Of a stretch of DNA of 43,731 nucleotides, positions 5,058-25,885 are shown one piece after another (position 1 is the stretch's first letter; every line of letters starts with the position of its first letter). The position numbers and the translations under genes were made by a program. The stretch is from a virus (lineage: Duplodnaviria; Caudoviricetes), in IMG/VR virus record IMGVR_UViG_3300012200_000004, positions 1-43,731 of that record. One strand, written 5' to 3'. The notes beneath the pieces were generated by a model that was not told where the DNA came from, made no database searches, and saw only the letters and a program-made list of their open reading frames with translations.

Positions 5058-5092
5058 GAAGCCCCTCACTGCTAGGGCCAGTGAGGGGCTTC
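5058..5092. terminator. bidirectional hairpin terminator between convergent blocks
   Basis: 14-bp perfect stem GAAGCCCCTCACTG/CAGTGAGGGGCTTC. Confidence 0.8.
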
Positions 5093-5109: not shown

Positions 5110-5616
5110 CTAGACTTGATCCTCGTACAACCGGTACAGGTCCCCGGGGGTGACATCCCCAGGCCAGCGGCCGTCCGCGAAGAGCTGCCAGCCACCGGCT
5201 TCGGCCGCGAAGTCCGCGAGCTGACTGCAGATCATGTGATGGGTTGCCCCCACATAGTCCCGCAGGCGCCCGGACGGTAGGTGCAGCCGGAGGGCCGCGA
5301 TAGACAGGTAGTCGACGAAGCTGTACGGCGTACCGACCAGGTTCAGGGCCGCTCGGGCGACCCGCTCCCGGTGCTCGTCGGGGCAGCGGAGGTAGACCGC
5401 CTCGTGGTAGTTCGAGACGTGGACAGCTCCGCCCGGCATGGCTTCGACGATCGTCTCGTCAGAGGACGCCGTTCCAGCTTCGGTGACGACCACAAACGCA
5501 TGCTCATAGTCCTTGAAGCCGTCCCCGTTCAGCCACTGGCCGAAGCGGATGGCCTTGCCGACCACGCCGCTGATCTGGGTGAGGCCGATGTCGCCCGGCC
5601 GAGGCTGGTAGCTCAT
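5110..5616 (-). CDS. permuted papain-like (NlpC/P60, YiiX/YebB-type) cysteine amidase
   Basis: PGDI start, YEHA (His), G-T-PY, ICSQL (Cys): His-before-Cys permuted order. Confidence 0.75.
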   Translation of the reverse strand: MSYQPRPGDIGLTQISGVVGKAIRFGQWLNGDGFKDYEHAFVVVTEAGTASSDETIVEAMPGGAVHVSNYHEAVYLRCPDEHRERVARAALNLVGTPYSFVDYLSIAALRLHLPSGRLRDYVGATHHMICSQLADFAAEAGGWQLFADGRWPGDVTPGDLYRLYEDQV

Positions 5617-5732
5617 CGTCCCCGCCCGTTTCCGCTGCCGCTGAAGATGAGAAGCAGGGCGACGATGATCAGGATGATCCCGCCTCCGCCACTGATGGAC
5701 CTGCTGGTGTCTGCCGCGAACTCGATCATCAT
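5613..5732 (-). CDS. small membrane protein (38-39 aa)
   Basis: Manually translated; GIILIIVALLLIF segment; start/stop overlaps with both neighbours. Confidence 0.6.
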   Translation of the reverse strand: MMIEFAADTSRSISGGGGIILIIVALLLIFSGSGNGRGR

Positions 5733-6043
5733 GAACCTTCCAGTTCTACCCGGGCCCTCAGGGCGTTGAGCTTCGAGTCGAGGTAGGCCTGAGGGTCCTC
5801 GACCCAGTCATACAGAGCGACCATAGCCGTGATGATCACGTCGGTCAGTTCGTGGGCGATGTCCATCTCGGACTTGTTCCGGCCCTTGCGCTTGTTGCCG
5901 CCCGAGTAGCCGATGAAGGCCTCCATGACCTCACCAACTTCCTCGGACAGTTTCATCAGTCGCAGGGCATCTCCGCCGTCGACGACCGAGTAATCGTCCT
6001 GGTAGTCGCGGATCTTCCGGTGGATGTGGCTGTACGTGCTCAC
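5729..6043 (-). CDS. MazG-like nucleotide pyrophosphohydrolase
   Basis: KLSEEVGEV...ELTDVII MazG EExxE/ExxD motif. Confidence 0.85.
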   Translation of the reverse strand: MSTYSHIHRKIRDYQDDYSVVDGGDALRLMKLSEEVGEVMEAFIGYSGGNKRKGRNKSEMDIAHELTDVIITAMVALYDWVEDPQAYLDSKLNALRARVELEGS

Positions 6044-6465
6044 GCGCCTTCCTCCAGGACTTCGTTGATGAACTCGTCGATCAGGTCGTCGAAGTGCTCT
6101 TCGCCCAGCCGGATGACGGTGTTGGCATCGTTGAGGAACGCGATGACCCTCTCCGCGGGGAGAGCCAGATCGGCGTGGCCCGAGGCGTTCCGCAGGCAGA
6201 CAACGACCCGCATGAGGGATCCCGAGGCGAAGTACTTGAACTTGACGTCGCCCTGACCAACCGGGGTCACCGAGGTCACGCCGCGGGTCAGAAGCTCGCG
6301 CGAGAACACCCAGACGACATCCTCCTGGGCGCCGTCAGCCCTGATGACCATCTGAACGGCGATCGGGTCGTACTCCTCGTCGAACGTCAGGGTGATATTG
6401 GTCGGGATCTGGCACTTCTGCTCGCCAACCTTGAGGAGCGTGCCCTGAAACTCGTGGCTGATCAT
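6040..6465 (-). CDS. ssgA: SsgA-like (SALP) sporulation/cell-division protein
   Basis: DP-x-AV, W-x-F-x-RELL-x-x-G, P-x-G-x-GDV, FL...GEE: SALP signature motifs. Confidence 0.85.
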   Translation of the reverse strand: MISHEFQGTLLKVGEQKCQIPTNITLTFDEEYDPIAVQMVIRADGAQEDVVWVFSRELLTRGVTSVTPVGQGDVKFKYFASGSLMRVVVCLRNASGHADLALPAERVIAFLNDANTVIRLGEEHFDDLIDEFINEVLEEGA

Positions 6466-7334
6466 CAGCCCTCCTTGTGTTGCTGAATGCGGTACGCGGA
6501 CTCGATGGTGCGTTGGATCTCGAAGTCTCCCAGGCCAGCCTCAGCGGCTGCCGGGCCGAGAACGTCCTGGGCGACCTGGAGCGAGGCTTTGTCGCTGTAC
6601 ATAGCCCTGGCCGCCCATAGCAGGGCGTTGTTCCTGTTGCCCTCCCCGGCGTTACGGACCGAGTCGACCAGACCCGACCAGGAGATAGCTCCGGGCTGCA
6701 TCAGCCCCTTGGGCCGACTGATGCGGGGCTGCTGGGGCTTCTCGGCGACCAGAAGGCGAATCCACTGCGGGGGGAGGCCGGGCATCAGGTGGTGGTTGTC
6801 ACCGACGTACGATCCGTCGCCGACCTGTGACCCCTCGCCGAGGACGTAGCCGCCGTACTGGCCGCCGTTACCGCGGACGTCGACAATGCCCTTGACGGGT
6901 GAGGCCTGGGAGATCTTCGGCCAGTGGGCGGGCCAACGGTAGTAGAGGTGGAGGCCGCCGGACCGGGTGCGGACGCTGTAGACCGCCAGGTCAGAGGGGC
7001 TGTCGCCACCCAGCTTGTACGCCATCTCGTCGAACACCTCCTCGCCGTCGACCCGCGGGCCGTAGGCGTCGTGCAGGTGCGCCCACTCGGTGCCGCGCAG
7101 CTTCCAGTCCTCTTTGGCGACATCCAGATCGACGACCAGGAGCTGGGACGGCTTGCAGGCGACGCCGATATTGGCCTTCGGGTCGACCCTGGTCCAGAAG
7201 TAGACGATGGCGTTGATGTCGTTGGTGGCATTCTGCCCCCACTGCCCGGCGGAAGCGTGGGGGATCTTCTGGCCTGCGGCGACGGGGAAGATGTGGAACC
7301 CCCGAGCCTGAGCGTCCAGGGCCGCTTTCAGCAT
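6465..7334 (-). CDS. bifunctional DNA primase/polymerase (Prim-Pol) with C-terminal PriCT-like domain
   Basis: GFHIFPV, NIG, VVDLD, TRSGGLHLYY, DVRG..GYV, GxRN; start reset to ATG at 7334 (TGATG coupling). Confidence 0.9.
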   Translation of the reverse strand: MLKAALDAQARGFHIFPVAAGQKIPHASAGQWGQNATNDINAIVYFWTRVDPKANIGVACKPSQLLVVDLDVAKEDWKLRGTEWAHLHDAYGPRVDGEEVFDEMAYKLGGDSPSDLAVYSVRTRSGGLHLYYRWPAHWPKISQASPVKGIVDVRGNGGQYGGYVLGEGSQVGDGSYVGDNHHLMPGLPPQWIRLLVAEKPQQPRISRPKGLMQPGAISWSGLVDSVRNAGEGNRNNALLWAARAMYSDKASLQVAQDVLGPAAAEAGLGDFEIQRTIESAYRIQQHKEG

Positions 7335-7513
7335 CAGCCGATCACCAGCAACTCTCCAGTAGTGACGCACTGCCAGCACCGTAGGCCGTTCGGATTCTCG
7401 TGGTCGTCCTTGAACGAGTAGAGCTTGCCGTCGAACGGATAACAGGGCTTGAAGTAGTCGACCCGAGCGTTCTCGTCGAGTTCTTCGAGCCACTTGACCG
7501 CTTCGGGATTCAC
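7334..7513 (-). CDS. hypothetical protein (59 aa)
   Basis: GTG start overlaps upstream stop; stop overlaps Prim-Pol start. Confidence 0.6.
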   Translation of the reverse strand: MNPEAVKWLEELDENARVDYFKPCYPFDGKLYSFKDDHENPNGLRCWQCVTTGELLVIG

Positions 7514-7680
7514 CCTTCCTCCCCGAACGGGTCGTAGTCCCACCGACTGTCTCCGTCGACCGAAGCCTCCGGGTACCGCTCGGACCGAAAGCGCTCCGCG
7601 ATCGCGCATTCCAGCGGATCCGTCTCGCTTGCGGCGTCAGAGACGAAATCCCCCATGACGCGCTGCCTGCGCTCCTTCAT
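7510..7680 (-). CDS. hypothetical acidic protein (56 aa) directly after pup
   Basis: Manually translated MKERRQRVMGDF...DYDPFGEEG; fills the gap with GTGA coupling. Confidence 0.6.
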   Translation of the reverse strand: MKERRQRVMGDFVSDAASETDPLECAIAERFRSERYPEASVDGDSRWDYDPFGEEG

Positions 7681-7683
7681 GGC

Positions 7684-7911
7684 CTATTCACCGCCCTGCT
7701 GCACGTAATTCTGGACGAATTCCTGGGCGTTCTCTTCGAGGAGGTCGTCGATGTCGGCGAGAAGTTGCTCGTCCAGCACGTCGTCGATGTTCGCGAGGGT
7801 TTCCTCGGTGGAGTCGGCCAGCTCCTGGTTTACCGGCGCGGCCTTTGTCTCCTCGACCTCTTCGGTACGAGTGGCGGCCTTCTGCTTCTGGACCTGCTCC
7901 TGCTTTGCCAT
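7684..7911 (-). CDS. pup: prokaryotic ubiquitin-like protein Pup homologue (75 aa)
   Basis: Acidic, disordered-looking N-terminus; IDDLLEENAQEFVQNYVQQGGE C-terminus matches the Pup consensus; GGAGG RBS 4 nt before ATG. Confidence 0.92.
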   Translation of the reverse strand: MAKQEQVQKQKAATRTEEVEETKAAPVNQELADSTEETLANIDDVLDEQLLADIDDLLEENAQEFVQNYVQQGGE

Positions 7912-7930
7912 ATTACCTCCCGGTAACAAA

Positions 7931-7977
7931 GAGGGGAGCCCCTCAGGTAATATGTACTTACCCGAGGGGCTCCCCGC
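7931..7977 (-). promoter_or_regulatory. conserved long intergenic hairpin (copy 1; also a probable terminator after the endolysin)
   Basis: GGGGAGCCCCTCGGGTAA...TTACCTGAGGGGCTCCCC then TCTTTGTT; related to 24156-24202 and 25886-25929. Confidence 0.7.
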
Positions 7978-7985
7978 TAAACCTG

Positions 7986-9458
7986 TCAGCTTTCGAGACG
8001 GTGCGCCAGAACGTCGGCGACCTTCGCGGCCAGGGCGTCCAGGTCGATCCCGCCCACCTGGATGGCGGCGACAGCGGCCTTGATGGCAGCGGCGTCGACC
8101 TTCACGGCGTCGGCAGCCTGAGCTGCCTCACGGGCCTGGAGGTAGGTCGCCTTCAGGTAGGACGTCGCCGTCCAGAACTTGTTGGTGTCGGTCGCGTCAT
8201 CAGGCGACGGGATAATGCCGTCGGTGCTGAAGATGGCGCGGATGTCGTCGGCGGAAAGTGCCACGTCTGCTCCTGTAGCGAGTTGGATGATGCGGGCGAA
8301 GTCCAGGTTGCCCGGGTCCCCGTGAAGGTTCTCGGGGACGTGCTGGTGACCCAAGTGGCCGTTATAGGCCAGCCAGGCCGTGTTGGACAGACGGACACCG
8401 TTCGCTGTGCCAGCCGATCCGGGGTACGCCTTCCAGGTGACCGTGGACTTGATCGGTACCTGGTGCTTGCTTTCGAGCCAGTTGACGAACTTCGCGACTT
8501 CGGCCAGCGCCCAGTCCGGAGCTTCCGGCCAGTAGATGAACTGACCCCTGTATCCGGCGGCATTCCAGTTGTCCCGAGTGCCCGGGTCGCACGTCCCCAC
8601 TAGTTCTACCTGGGCGACGTTAAGCGTGTTCGTCTCGACGCCGCCCGGCAGGTTCACCAGGGCGCGCGACGACTTGTCGATGTCGAAGTGCTGGTACCAC
8701 TTGACAGTTCGGGTCTTCGTGTCGGCCACCGCGGTGAGGGTCGGCGCCTCAGCCCCGCCGGAGTAGGTCGGCAGGACTCGCGTCTCCGTGGTGTGCCAGA
8801 CGAGCGTGTTGACGTTCATCTGCGAGCCGGGGTAGGCGTCGCCGTACCAGTGACTCAGATCGGCCCCCGGATACTTCTGCGGAGCTATCGCAGGAGCCGG
8901 TGTGGACGCTGCGCCCGCCCAGGCCTTCATGTCTGCCAGGGACGCGAAGTCGGCGACGTCGCTATCAAGCGGGCTGTCCGTGTACTGCTGGACGACCCAC
9001 TTGTCAGTGACGCGCGCCTTGCCCGGAGTGGTGTAGTCCGCGATCCACAGGCCGTCTCCGGCGTAGCTCGTGGTATCTACACTCTTCCAGAACGACGTGT
9101 TGCAGTAGAGGCCTACCTTGTGGCCGGTTGCCTTGGACTTGCACAACCGGATCCATTGGTCCTTCTCGGCGGTCGAGGGGTGGGTTCCACCCGTTGACTC
9201 CCAGTCGAACCAAAGGTGATCGCCAGGCTTGGCGTTGGCGTGCGCGAGGAAATAGTCGACCTGCGCAGTTACATTTCCGGCATGGCCGAAGTGGTAGAAC
9301 CCGACCGACAGTCCGTGCTGACGCGCCCAGGCGGTCTGGGCGGCGAGCCGGGGGTTGACGTACCCCGTCCCCTCGGTCGCCTTGATGATCGCGAAGCTCT
9401 TGCCCGCGACCGGGAACTGCTCGGCCTGGTAAGCCGAAACGTCGACGCCGTAGATCAC
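7986..9458 (-). CDS. endolysin: GH25 muramidase + amidase-2-like domain + helical C-terminus
   Basis: GVDVS, IKATEG, GFYHF, DWE, LWIADY (GH25); WHTTE, QVE, GHQHVPEN-x-HGDPG (Zn amidase). Confidence 0.88.
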   Translation of the reverse strand: MIYGVDVSAYQAEQFPVAGKSFAIIKATEGTGYVNPRLAAQTAWARQHGLSVGFYHFGHAGNVTAQVDYFLAHANAKPGDHLWFDWESTGGTHPSTAEKDQWIRLCKSKATGHKVGLYCNTSFWKSVDTTSYAGDGLWIADYTTPGKARVTDKWVVQQYTDSPLDSDVADFASLADMKAWAGAASTPAPAIAPQKYPGADLSHWYGDAYPGSQMNVNTLVWHTTETRVLPTYSGGAEAPTLTAVADTKTRTVKWYQHFDIDKSSRALVNLPGGVETNTLNVAQVELVGTCDPGTRDNWNAAGYRGQFIYWPEAPDWALAEVAKFVNWLESKHQVPIKSTVTWKAYPGSAGTANGVRLSNTAWLAYNGHLGHQHVPENLHGDPGNLDFARIIQLATGADVALSADDIRAIFSTDGIIPSPDDATDTNKFWTATSYLKATYLQAREAAQAADAVKVDAAAIKAAVAAIQVGGIDLDALAAKVADVLAHRLES

Positions 9459-10967: not shown

Positions 10968-11906
10968 CTAGTACTTGTAGCAGGCGACACCCGTGGTGTA
11001 GATGTCAACCGAGGACCCCTTGGCCGCGTAACCGCCGCCGAGGGCCGATTCGTTTTGCAGGACCCAATCGGCGGCGTCCGGGAAGTCGGCGTTGACCGTC
11101 TTCTTCAGGATTCCGTCGATGTAGAACCGCAGACGCCCGGGAACGATCTCCTGGGAGTAGGTGTGCCATCCGGTCCACGCCGCGTTGGGCAGCAGGTCCC
11201 CCGCGGACTCGCTGAATCCGTGGGTGAAAACCGAGATGGGGTCCGACTTGAAGTTGCCGCCCGCTTCGGGGAAGTCGACTTCGTTGGGGGTGTACCGCAG
11301 GTGGGCCATCTTGAAACCGTCGACGGCCACCGATGACACCCGGGTCCGCTCGGTGAACTTCCCGTAGCGCAGGTTCATGCACTTCAGGGGCACCGGGGCG
11401 GAGACGTGATTCGAGCCGCCAGCCGCGGGGCGGAACATGTGGACCTTGAGCTGGCCGTCACCGGACGCGGTCCTGATGACCGACGTGGTGTCCTCGGGGC
11501 GGTAGTAGCCACCGAACGTCCGCCCACCATTACCGTCGGCGCCGGATGTCGCGGTGTCCGCCCAGCCTGAAGGATAGGCGCCCAGAGAGCCGTAGTATCG
11601 GGTCCCTGAGAGTCCAGCGCATTTGAAGTCGCCGTCTCCGGCGCAGTTCTTGAACCGGCCGAGCGGGACCTGCTGGGCGTTGAACGACTCGCTGTAGAGC
11701 TGCCTGAACGGCCCGCAGTCGCCGACCGGGGTGGAGTCGTTGATGGTATGGCAGGCATCCTGAGAGGGGGTGGCCGCGAACGCCCGAGGGGATAGGGCGA
11801 CACCGGTGCCGAGCAGGGCGCCGACCAGGAAAGCTGATACGCACTGCCGCCGTCGGCCGTTTGGGCTGGGCGGCTCGGGTGTCGGGGGGTGACCTTCGCT
11901 ACTCAT
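10968..11906 (-). CDS. secreted GH16/ConA-like glycoside hydrolase
   Basis: Signal-peptide-like N-terminus (RRR, hydrophobic core, AFA); YGKF, EVDFPE (ExDxxE), WHTY..E, FYIDG. Confidence 0.75.
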   Translation of the reverse strand: MSSEGHPPTPEPPSPNGRRRQCVSAFLVGALLGTGVALSPRAFAATPSQDACHTINDSTPVGDCGPFRQLYSESFNAQQVPLGRFKNCAGDGDFKCAGLSGTRYYGSLGAYPSGWADTATSGADGNGGRTFGGYYRPEDTTSVIRTASGDGQLKVHMFRPAAGGSNHVSAPVPLKCMNLRYGKFTERTRVSSVAVDGFKMAHLRYTPNEVDFPEAGGNFKSDPISVFTHGFSESAGDLLPNAAWTGWHTYSQEIVPGRLRFYIDGILKKTVNADFPDAADWVLQNESALGGGYAAKGSSVDIYTTGVACYKY

Positions 11907-19505: not shown

Positions 19506-19850
19506 GTGCAACGTGTCACTATCGGGGACCGGGCGGCGGACCGCCTGGCTTCCGTAGTCGGATCCTGGAAGTTTGTCATCGGCCAGGGAATCTTCCTCGC
19601 CGTGTGGTTTGTGCTCAACACCGTGGCTTGGTTCGCCCACTGGGATTCCTACCCGTTCGTCCTGGCCAACCTGTTCATGTCGGCCGAAGCGGCGTTCACC
19701 GGCCCGATCATCATGATGGCGTCCAACCGGGCGGCCGAGATGGACCGGTTGATCCTCAACCGTGACTACCTGGAAGACGTCGAGACCAACCGCCTCGTCG
19801 AACGCATCGCCGCCCACCTGGGAGTATCCCTTGAAGATCCCACGCCCTAG
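19506..19850 (+). CDS. DUF1003 family membrane protein
   Basis: GDR-x-AD...GSW-x-F...W...N...D-x-YPF...NL-x-x-S...P-I-I-M-M-x-x-N-R. Confidence 0.88.
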   Translation: MQRVTIGDRAADRLASVVGSWKFVIGQGIFLAVWFVLNTVAWFAHWDSYPFVLANLFMSAEAAFTGPIIMMASNRAAEMDRLILNRDYLEDVETNRLVERIAAHLGVSLEDPTP

Positions 19851-24155: not shown

Positions 24156-24202
24156 GGAGGGAACTCCCTCAAGGTAATACCTACCCTGAAGGGGCTCCCC
24201 TC
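24156..24202 (-). promoter_or_regulatory. conserved long intergenic hairpin (copy 2)
   Basis: GAGGGGAGCCCCTTCAGGGTAGGTATTACCTTGAGGGAGTTCCCTCC on the - strand. Confidence 0.7.
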
Positions 24203-24650: not shown

Positions 24651-24917
24651 CTAGAAGTCGAAAGTAACGGGGGAAACGCCGTTGGCCAGCCGGTACTCGC
24701 TGACGCACTTGAGGCAGTCCCGGCCGGTACGGTAGCCGTCCGAGTCCCTCCACCCCCCGGCGGGAACCGGGCCCCGGATCGTCTGTCCGCAGTACGAACG
24801 GAGCGTCTGGACGACGATGTCCCCCGAACTGGTCAGCGTCACCCCCCCCTTCAGGTGGGCGGTGTCGGACTTGTCGGTGACGCCGTAGGCGTTCGCTGTC
24901 AGGGTGATGGACCTCAT
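24651..24917 (-). CDS. zinc-binding hypothetical protein
   Basis: AH...YCG...CLKC. Confidence 0.6.
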   Translation of the reverse strand: MRSITLTANAYGVTDKSDTAHLKGGVTLTSSGDIVVQTLRSYCGQTIRGPVPAGGWRDSDGYRTGRDCLKCVSEYRLANGVSPVTFDF

Positions 24918-25858
24918 GATCGTCCTCTCGGGAGACCTCGAACCGCACTTCGCCAGATGGACGGAGCGCGAAGGATGGACATGTGATGCGCTAGGGCCTG
25001 GGCCTTCGGTGACGCCAGGATGTACTCGGTGACTTCGTCTTCCGTCATGTGCAGGAGCTGGGTCTCCTTCGCCCGACCGCCGTAGCAGGTCATCCCCCGA
25101 CCAGCCTCACTGGGGGCAGAGACCGGACGTCCGCAGTCGGCTGCCAGCCACTTCCACGCCTGAGGGGAGTAGCGGAGCAGGATCTTGGTACCGAAGGACT
25201 CGACGATCGGCGCCCCGCCCATGTCGCGGTAGGTGGCCAGGCTGGCCGCCCCGATAACGTGGATCTTGACCGCGCGCCCCATCAGGAGGACGTCCTTGAA
25301 GGCGTCGAACGAGCGGTAGTTCCCCTCCGGCAGGCGCTTGTCCAGGTCCTTCAGCTCCCGGATGGTCGAGTTCATCTCCTCGAACACCACCGCGATCCTC
25401 GGGCCGACCGGTGCATCCTCGACCGGACCCCGGAACTTCGAGACGATCGCGTTCCGGCGGTGGAGCTCCTTGCCGAGCTGGACGAGCGCGTTACCGATCT
25501 CCGCCGGAGATAGGGCCTGGGAGACGTTGGGCTTCAGGTCGCGGGCCCATCGGTGGCTGTGCTGCTTCCGGTCCAGGATGACCACCAAGCCACCCTGGGC
25601 GGCCACCTGGGCGGCCACCGACCGTGCGGTCACTGACTTGCCACCACCGGTCGACGCGTTCACCAGGATGTGCGGTGACTCCGAGTCCAGGTCGACCGTG
25701 ATCGGCTGGCCGGAACCGTCGACGCCAAGGAAGATCGTGGACTCGGGGACCTGGGCCATCATCTCCCGTGCCGACTCCAGGTCCAGCATGGCCGGAAAGC
25801 CGATCGACTGTTGCGGGGTACCGACACCGGTGTACGGGCCGGACGTGAAGTCGAACAT
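24914..25858 (-). CDS. FtsK/TraB-like P-loop ATPase (soluble, motor domain only)
   Basis: PHILV-x-ASTGGGKS, ILD-x-K, EL-x-RR, VVFEE, GRA-x-x-IH, GRG. Confidence 0.8.
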   Translation of the reverse strand: MFDFTSGPYTGVGTPQQSIGFPAMLDLESAREMMAQVPESTIFLGVDGSGQPITVDLDSESPHILVNASTGGGKSVTARSVAAQVAAQGGLVVILDRKQHSHRWARDLKPNVSQALSPAEIGNALVQLGKELHRRNAIVSKFRGPVEDAPVGPRIAVVFEEMNSTIRELKDLDKRLPEGNYRSFDAFKDVLLMGRAVKIHVIGAASLATYRDMGGAPIVESFGTKILLRYSPQAWKWLAADCGRPVSAPSEAGRGMTCYGGRAKETQLLHMTEDEVTEYILASPKAQALAHHMSILRAPSIWRSAVRGLPRGRS

Positions 25859-25885
25859 GGTCACTCCTTTCTGCGTTGAGAATCT

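What the first reader, a model, noticed from the sequence alone, without database searches (positions are those of the whole stretch)
7684..7911. Phage-encoded Pup (prokaryotic ubiquitin-like protein) with no phage ligase or proteasome
Seen: a 75-aa acidic ORF with a strong RBS ends IDDLLEENAQEFVQNYVQQGGE and heads a coupled operon. I recognise no pafA, dop, arc/mpa or prcAB anywhere in this apparently complete genome. Established: actinobacterial Pup is ligated by PafA through its C-terminal Glu to substrate lysines and delivers them to ARC/Mpa and the 20S proteasome. A GGE end needs no Dop deamidation, and chromosomal pup normally sits with dop, prcBA and pafA. Inference: the phage supplies a ligation-ready tag to the host machinery. 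It could redirect degradation (defence proteins, amino-acid recycling) or act as a decoy saturating PafA, Dop or ARC. I cannot confirm from here whether this has been described.
Basis: partly seen in the sequence, partly recalled or inferred. Interest (0 to 1): 0.92.

Follow-up and report, generated by a model that had tools for sequence, protein, structure and literature searches.

The report
Phage Pup tag with doubled helix
A soil virus, probably of Streptomyces bacteria, carries its own altered copy of Pup, the bacterial counterpart of ubiquitin, without any of the enzymes that use it, so it likely feeds this tag into the host's protein-destruction machinery, a form of host takeover that appears untested.

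Summary
Confirmed. The minus-strand ORF 7684-7911 is a 75-aa Pup (Pfam and NCBIfam above cut-off) ending GGE. It heads a coupled operon in a complete, Dagobah-like phage genome with no pafA, dop, arc or proteasome gene. Such orphan Pups recur: 68 IMG/VR contigs plus cultured Streptomyces phage Dagobah carry one, 0 of these 69 records has a Pup ligase, and 26 neighbourhood groups share no partner gene. The gene is accessory: a 95%-complete relative lacks it. This lineage is remodelled. It has a conserved second copy of the ARC/PafA-binding helix (0 of 72 cellular Pups), and it has lost the lysine on which free Pup tags itself (26 of 27). The GG[E/Q] end and the N-terminal tail are kept, and a model docks the C-terminal half on S. 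coelicolor PafA. Most likely the host PafA ligates it as a working degradation tag (0.5); a decoy or inhibitor is the main rival (0.33). Nothing shows expression or function. Dagobah's GenBank record already names the gene, but I found no paper on phage Pup. This scan noted phage Pup on two other genomes before. Dagobah with S. coelicolor makes it directly testable.

The parts
7684..7911 (-). pup gene, 75 aa, ends GGE
7687..7764 (-). Canonical Pup C-terminal part (residues 50-75): PafA/Dop/ARC-binding helices and GGE
   Evidence: Matches PDB Pup chains; forms the interface in the PafA model, residues 47-75
7768..7800 (-). Extra upstream copy of helix 1 (residues 38-48); I42, D43 and L46 invariant in 21 close homologues
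   Evidence: separate helix 29-45 in the AlphaFold2 model; 24 of 33 bases identical to the canonical copy
7916..7920 (-). Ribosome-binding site GGAGG, 4 nt before the ATG
7933..7975 (-). 18-pair hairpin with a U-rich tail between endolysin and pup; terminator-like, possibly also a phage promoter or operator element (inferred)
   Evidence: (z -7.2), conserved in 8 related phages with or without pup; similar elements at 24186, 25914 and 26903 on the minus strand
7986..9458 (-). Endolysin (GH25 domain plus a second lysin domain), upstream neighbour
7510..7680 (-). 56-aa ORF of unknown function, 3 nt after the pup stop; no tblastn match in the related loci tested
7334..7513 (-). 59-aa ORF of unknown function, 47% identical to the ORF after pup in L002
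6465..7334 (-). Bifunctional primase-polymerase (PF09250)
6040..6465 (-). SsgA-family protein (PF04686), pointing to a filamentous actinomycete host
5729..6043 (-). MazG-like protein (weak matches)
5110..5732 (-). 39-aa ORF and a 168-aa phrog_1128 protein, last genes of the operon
5058..5092 (.). Terminator-like hairpin at the end of the operon (scored on the + strand), facing the converging tail genes

Best explanation
The phage gene encodes a genuine but remodelled Pup that is likely made during infection, likely ligated to lysines by the host's PafA through its C-terminal glutamate, and would then hand tagged proteins to the host's ARC unfoldase and proteasome. Shown: family membership, orphan state, GGE end, operon position, the extra helix and the lost K61-equivalent. 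Predicted: binding to PafA through residues 47-75. Inferred: expression, ligation, and a net rise or redirection of host protein turnover (amino-acid supply, or removal of host repair or defence proteins). Also inferred: the extra helix strengthens ARC capture, and loss of the lysine stops an abundant tag from being spent on itself. With no shared phage adaptor, targets would be set by PafA's own broad specificity.
For: (1) The C-terminus is under tight constraint in hits not chosen by it: 26 of 26 proteins end GG[E/Q] and 62 of 63 viral loci do. In vitro Mpa binding excludes the last four residues (PMC3769308, passage), so this end points to the PafA/Dop active sites. (2) Residues equivalent to L39, L40, I43, D44, L47, E48, N50, A51, F54, V55, Y58, V59 and Q60 of mycobacterial Pup are all kept. 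(3) The N-terminal segment is kept and conserved (residues 4-11 at 0.71-0.95 in 21 homologues); it is the part threaded into the ARC/Mpa pore (PMC6476560). (4) Complex model with PAFA_STRCO: ipSAE 0.77, best of 3 controls 0.00; the mark was reached by 51 of 78 solved and 2 of 108 mismatched pairs; runs agree in at least 84% of contacts; partner pLDDT at least 54. (5) K61 is where free Pup forms di-Pup, and K-to-R variants still pupylated PanB (PMC4783102); this clade lacks it in 26 of 27 while 72 of 72 cellular Pups have K or R. (6) No own ligase: PF03136, PF12224 and PF04107 absent with ringing controls.
Against: No expression, ligation or phenotype data exist. The complex pass may come from memory of solved Pup-PafA and Pup-Dop structures (4BJR, 7OY3) and cannot tell a substrate from an inhibitor. 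The extra helix lies outside the modelled PafA interface, and its ARC binding was not modelled. Several positions depart from cellular Pup (D41-to-A in 25 of 27, R/K56 lost in 27 of 27), which could impair Dop or ARC handling. The host already makes Pup, and nothing here shows Pup is limiting. Untargeted pupylation could also hit phage proteins (24 window proteins hold 4.1% lysine; no comparison set). The gene is dispensable in relatives.
Confidence: 0.5

Rival explanations
1. Decoy or dominant-negative inhibitor. Abundant phage Pup occupies PafA, Dop or ARC, or forms conjugates that are poorly removed or degraded, and so lowers pupylation-dependent destruction of phage proteins. A variant: it drives PafA self-pupylation and loss.
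For: The same conserved surfaces serve a decoy. Free Pup binds Mpa about tenfold more weakly than conjugates and occupies one of three coiled coils (PMC6476560), so a conserved second helix is what a decoy would need to compete. A 2026 review proposes, as untested, that phage proteins are under pressure from the host Pup-proteasome system (PMC13696103). PafA poly-pupylates itself through N-terminal Pup lysines and is then degraded (PMC4783102); this Pup has K3, K9, K11 and K23.
Against: An ARC-only decoy would not need GG[E/Q]. A non-ligatable end would make a cleaner inhibitor, yet 88 of 89 hits not chosen by their end keep GG[E/Q] (26 of 26 plus 62 of 63). Most viral Pups lack the extra helix (8 of 47 have it). 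The threading tail is kept.
Confidence: 0.33
2. Non-degradative use. Host PafA puts the tag on a phage or host complex so that ARC takes it apart, as with ferritin in Corynebacterium.
For: Precedent for ARC-only disassembly (PMC12288473). Pup genes often sit among replication or packaging genes in viral contigs.
Against: No neighbour family is shared by more than 5 of 26 neighbourhood groups, and the shared ones that got a label are generic phage genes. The likely host genus has a proteasome (PMC13696103).
Confidence: 0.1
3. A neutral passenger, or a small acidic protein with a function unrelated to pupylation.
For: Accessory: absent from a 95%-complete relative and found in only 1 true phage among 50,697 INPHARED records.
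Against: Conservation tracks the Pup binding face: 0.84 in residues 50-75 and 0.81 in the extra copy, against 0.59 in residues 1-27. It is intact in 26 neighbourhood groups and has a strong RBS at the head of an operon.
Confidence: 0.07

Closest known systems
Actinobacterial Pup (PF05639, TIGR03687) of the Pup-proteasome system (arc/mpa, dop, pup, prcB, prcA, pafA)
   Same: HMM scores above cut-off; acidic; conserved C-terminal helices; GG[E/Q] end; N-terminal tail; modelled PafA binding by the C-terminal half.
   Different: Virus-encoded with no pathway gene in the genome, whereas cellular pup lies next to a PafA-family gene (PMC2588565; 42 of 52 well-flanked metagenome loci). 75 aa because helix 1 is doubled (0 of 72 cellular). 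K61-, R56- and D41-equivalents are replaced.
Streptomyces phage Dagobah HUN42_00036 (QMP84414.1, MT711977), annotated 'ubiquitin-like protein Pup'
   Same: Same slot (endolysin, hairpin, pup, small ORF, primase-polymerase, ssgA), GGE end, extra helix; 46% identity over residues 17-75. Major capsid proteins are 70% identical.
   Different: Annotation only: the genome paper's main text has no occurrence of Pup, ubiquitin or proteasome. Dagobah's extra helix is more diverged.
Other orphan Pups in IMG/VR viral contigs (68 contigs found here; scan notes e1-5659039 and e1-9799395)
   Same: Stand-alone pup, GG[E/Q] end, no ligase in the record.
   Different: Most are 57-67 aa with one helix copy and keep K or R at the K61 position (34 of 41); they lie in unrelated gene contexts at 38-70% G+C.

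Membership tests
Pup protein family (PF05639 / TIGR03687) | Score above the curated cut-offs | tested here: met
   55.2 against 27 bits; 42.9 against 41.45 bits, a narrow margin
Pup protein family (PF05639 / TIGR03687) | C-terminal Gly-Gly-Glu/Gln followed by stop | tested here: met
Pup protein family (PF05639 / TIGR03687) | Conserved hydrophobic and acidic face of the two C-terminal helices | tested here: met
   13 core positions match the cellular majority; D41, E42, E52, R56 and K61 equivalents differ
Pup protein family (PF05639 / TIGR03687) | Small, acidic, intrinsically disordered with an unstructured N-terminal tail | tested here: inconclusive
   75 aa (the review range is 60-70, PMC3511204; the excess is the duplication), net charge -15, pLDDT 51-59 over residues 1-30; disorder itself not measured
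Pup protein family (PF05639 / TIGR03687) | Conjugated to substrate lysines by PafA and removed by Dop | not testable with these tools
   Only a docking model with PAFA_STRCO, ipSAE 0.77 against 0.00, possibly from memory of solved complexes
Pup protein family (PF05639 / TIGR03687) | Binds ARC/Mpa coiled coils and triggers unfolding | not tested
   The single complex job went to PafA
Pup-proteasome gene locus | pup adjacent to dop or pafA | tested here: not met
   No PF03136 in the complete genome; neighbours are endolysin and primase-polymerase. Not filed as a Pup-proteasome locus.
Pup-proteasome gene locus | arc/mpa and, in most species, prcBA nearby | tested here: not met

The most novel reading that the evidence does not exclude
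Many unrelated phages have taken up Pup as a stand-alone effector to seize the host's ubiquitin-like system, and the Dagobah-like lineage has evolved a two-helix 'super-Pup' that cannot tag itself at the usual lysine and grips two ARC coiled coils at once, so that it outcompetes host Pup and decides which proteins the infected cell destroys. This would make pupylation a phage-host battleground like ubiquitin in eukaryotic virology.
Probability: 0.3. Interest if true: 0.92.

Novelty: new variant of a known kind. Interest (0 to 1): 0.74.

Why it matters
Pupylation is studied as a stress and nutrient system; the four reviews or surveys I searched have no occurrence of 'phage', and a 2026 review calls a phage link compelling but untested. 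A phage gene for the tag itself, kept intact in many unrelated viral contigs, is direct genomic evidence that phages interact with this pathway. One carrier, Dagobah, is cultured on S. coelicolor, so the question can be tested now. A natural Pup with a doubled binding helix and no K61 would also inform how ARC reads the tag and could serve degron or proximity-labelling tools.

Tried and rejected
Artefact or shadow ORF: rejected; GC3 0.82, RBS, HMM hits and homologues. Host fragment mis-called as phage: rejected; circular, complete, with terminase, portal, capsid and tail genes. MT835496.1, a second INPHARED hit, is a bacterial arc-dop-pup-pafA stretch and was dropped. L062 from genome contigs was a spurious match and was dropped. 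Own divergent ligase (lead from e1-5659039): no PF12224 or PF04107 with ringing controls; PF14395 gave no hit but rang in no control, so it is uninformative; the 312-aa unknown is a GH16-like glycosidase. A conserved adaptor next to pup: none across 26 groups. Recent capture from the host: not supported; the quick tree puts this Pup with other phage Pups and outside a starred group of 17 cellular Pups, but it has only 66 columns, the careful search did not finish and one origin is not excluded. E-ending as a phage speciality: not significant (p 0.08). Expression: no RNA holder listed; DNA contigs of four soil runs showed no variant letters and partial cover only. PHROGs has no family for it. 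tblastn of P0029 found nothing in phages or plasmids, not even Dagobah, so the INPHARED count is a lower bound. Lysine content had no comparison set and was not used as support.

Full report
Observation. The ORF at 7684-7911 lies on the minus strand and gives 75 residues ending QQGGE and a stop. GGAGG sits 4 nt before the ATG. It scores 55.2 bits on Pfam Pup (cut-off 27) and 42.9 on TIGR03687 (cut-off 41.45), and its seven significant PDB matches are all Pup chains. PHROGs has no family for it. Downstream, seven genes follow with a 3-nt gap and then start/stop overlaps: two small unknowns, a primase-polymerase, an SsgA-family protein, a MazG-like protein, a 39-aa ORF and a phrog_1128 protein. 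Upstream are an 18-pair hairpin with a U-rich tail and the endolysin.

The genome. The window is a complete virus record with terminal repeats and head and tail genes. It has no match to PF03136 (PafA and Dop), PF00227 or TIGR03689, and controls rang in each search. Amidoligase_2 and GCS2 are also absent. The nearest cultured phage is Streptomyces phage Dagobah (major capsid 70% identical), and SsgA fits a filamentous actinomycete host; the host itself is inferred. Dagobah carries a gene annotated 'ubiquitin-like protein Pup' in the same slot. It is the only true phage hit among 50,697 INPHARED records; the other hit is a bacterial fragment, and one query missed even Dagobah, so this is a lower bound.

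How widespread. A motif scan and two relative searches of IMG/VR gave 68 distinct contigs with a Pup gene. None of these 68 or Dagobah has PF03136 (0 of 50; 0 of 19); 10 of them are at least 90% complete. PF00227 was searched in 50 of the 69 records and found in none. As a control, the same motif in metagenome contigs gave 119 loci, a small part of about 12,000; 92 of 119 have dop, pafA, prc or arc alongside, against 0 of 111 (redundant) viral loci, and 42 of 52 among those with 800 bases or more on both sides. Caveats: most viral records are fragments, IMG/VR selects against host genes, and I did not verify each contig as viral. The flanks fall into 26 groups by shared genes; no family occurs in more than 5, and those that got a label are generic phage genes such as portal, terminase, dCMP deaminase, HNH and thymidylate synthase. 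So there is no conserved partner. Within the Dagobah-like group pup is accessory: of 9 primase relatives at 54% identity or more, 5 have pup nearby (these 5 seeded the search) and 4 do not. One of the 4 is 95% complete with no pup anywhere, and two keep the endolysin-hairpin-primase frame without it. The hairpin thus belongs to the slot, not to pup.

What is different about this Pup. (a) Helix 1 is doubled: residues 38-48 repeat residues 50-60, with 24 of 33 bases identical. Such a second copy occurs in 0 of 72 cellular Pups from verified loci, 0 of 119 profile hits, 8 of 47 viral Pups and 21 of 26 close homologues (the 26 have no genomic context). In 21 aligned homologues I42, D43 and L46 of the extra copy are invariant; they correspond to I43, D44 and L47, which are among the residues perturbed by Mpa (PMC3769308, passages). 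AlphaFold2 draws the extra copy as a separate helix, 29-45, before helix 48-71. (b) The lysine before GG (K61) is K or R in 72 of 72 cellular Pups and 34 of 41 viral ones; in the doubled clade it is lost in 26 of 27, and the R56 equivalent in 27 of 27. These sequences are related, so the counts are not independent. K61 is where free Pup forms di-Pup, and K-to-R variants still pupylated PanB (PMC4783102, passages); K-to-Q was not covered in the passages I saw. (c) What is kept: GG[E/Q] in 26 of 26 and 62 of 63 hits not chosen by their end, the core binding face, and residues 4-11 of the N-terminal tail. A quick tree (66 columns, careful search unfinished) puts this Pup with other phage Pups in a weak group (SH-aLRT 81) of 31 viral and 2 cellular rows; the viral label needs 12 changes against 37.7 shuffled, but well-supported branches do not exclude one origin.

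Mechanism. Established: PafA ligates Pup's terminal glutamate to lysines, Dop deamidates and removes it, ARC/Mpa binds Pup by coiled coils and threads its N-terminus (PMC12288473 parts 1-2 of 4; PMC8223512 section 4 part 1). The phage has none of these, so any Pup-like action must use the host's. A complex model with S. coelicolor PafA scored ipSAE 0.77 against 0.00 for the best of 3 controls, with residues 47-75 at the interface, at least 84% contact agreement and partner pLDDT at least 54; the mark was reached by 51 of 78 solved and 2 of 108 mismatched pairs. Like complexes are solved (PMC8599861, passages), so the pass shows likeness only. The invariant GG[E/Q] end is the best sign of active-site engagement, since in vitro Mpa binding leaves out the last four residues. 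With the threading tail also kept, I favour a ligated, working tag (0.5). Loss of K61 would keep an abundant tag from consuming itself, and the extra helix would improve ARC capture; both are inference. The decoy reading (0.33) fits the same features: free Pup binds Mpa about tenfold more weakly than conjugates and uses one of three coiled coils (PMC6476560, passages), so a second helix could turn it into a competitor. Sequence cannot separate the two. Non-degradative remodelling (0.1) and a passenger (0.07) are less likely. There is no expression evidence either way.

Prior knowledge. Nine literature searches (open-access PMC and bioRxiv only, listings read) returned no paper on a phage-encoded Pup. 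The Dagobah paper (PMC7650747, passages) has zero occurrences of Pup, ubiquitin or proteasome in its main text; its supplement could not be read and may list the domain. 'Phage' does not occur in PMC12288473, PMC8223512, PMC2588565 or PMC3511204. PMC13696103 (passages) raises phage adaptation to pupylation as untested. PMC13313380 and the CheckAMG preprint matched 'pup' only in unrelated words. Subscription papers were not searched. The gene name is public in GenBank and in JGI protein names. This scan noted phage Pup on two other genomes (e1-5659039, part of which later fell, and e1-9799395); these are unchecked notes and not support. They describe other phages, and the lines shown do not mention a doubled helix.

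Verdict. A real Pup-family member in an unusual setting and form: a new variant of a known kind. It is not a Pup-proteasome locus. Interest 0.74: function is unshown and the annotation exists, but the pattern is widespread, the lineage is specifically remodelled, and a cultured phage-host pair makes an open question testable.

Noticed in passing
window minus strand, cores at 7963, 24186, 25914, 26903: A family of G+C-rich hairpins with a shared GGTA...TACC core, each followed by an RBS and the first gene of a leftward operon, and conserved at the pup slot in 8 related phages. From memory this recalls the terminator-embedded lytic promoters of phiC31; not tested.
   Followed up: partly
P0004: A 63-aa near-copy of this Pup (84% identity) in which the two helix copies are collapsed into one; on a 695-base contig, so either a natural deletion between the repeats or an assembly artefact.
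   Followed up: no
window 6040-6465: SsgA-family sporulation/division protein in the pup operon, shared with Dagobah and four other relatives; a second host-derived regulator next to pup.
   Followed up: partly
window 10968-11906: 312-aa protein with a hydrophobic N-terminal stretch, like actinobacterial GH16 glycosidases.
   Followed up: partly
window 19506-19850 and 24914-25864: A DUF1003 membrane protein and an FtsK/HerA-like ATPase in the non-structural arm.
   Followed up: no
L119 4890-5084: A viral Pup-like ORF ending QGQ instead of GG[E/Q], the only such case in 63 loci; a candidate non-ligatable form.
   Followed up: no
L038, L014 (group of 9 contigs); L029 (296-kb record); L027 (163-kb record): Pup in large-phage contexts: directly upstream of a 486-490-aa ORF in low-G+C contigs (I read it from memory as a UvsW-like helicase; not tested), and in two complete genomes of 163 and 296 kb.
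   Followed up: no
L240 (MT835496.1 39627-47716): A GenBank record titled 'Bacteriophage sp.' that holds a bacterial arc-dop-pup-pafA stretch; probably a mislabelled chromosome fragment.
   Followed up: yes
L131, L144, L160, L169, L172, L176: Metagenome Pup loci with long flanks but no tblastn hit to the Dop, PafA, Prc or ARC queries; their context was not examined.
   Followed up: no
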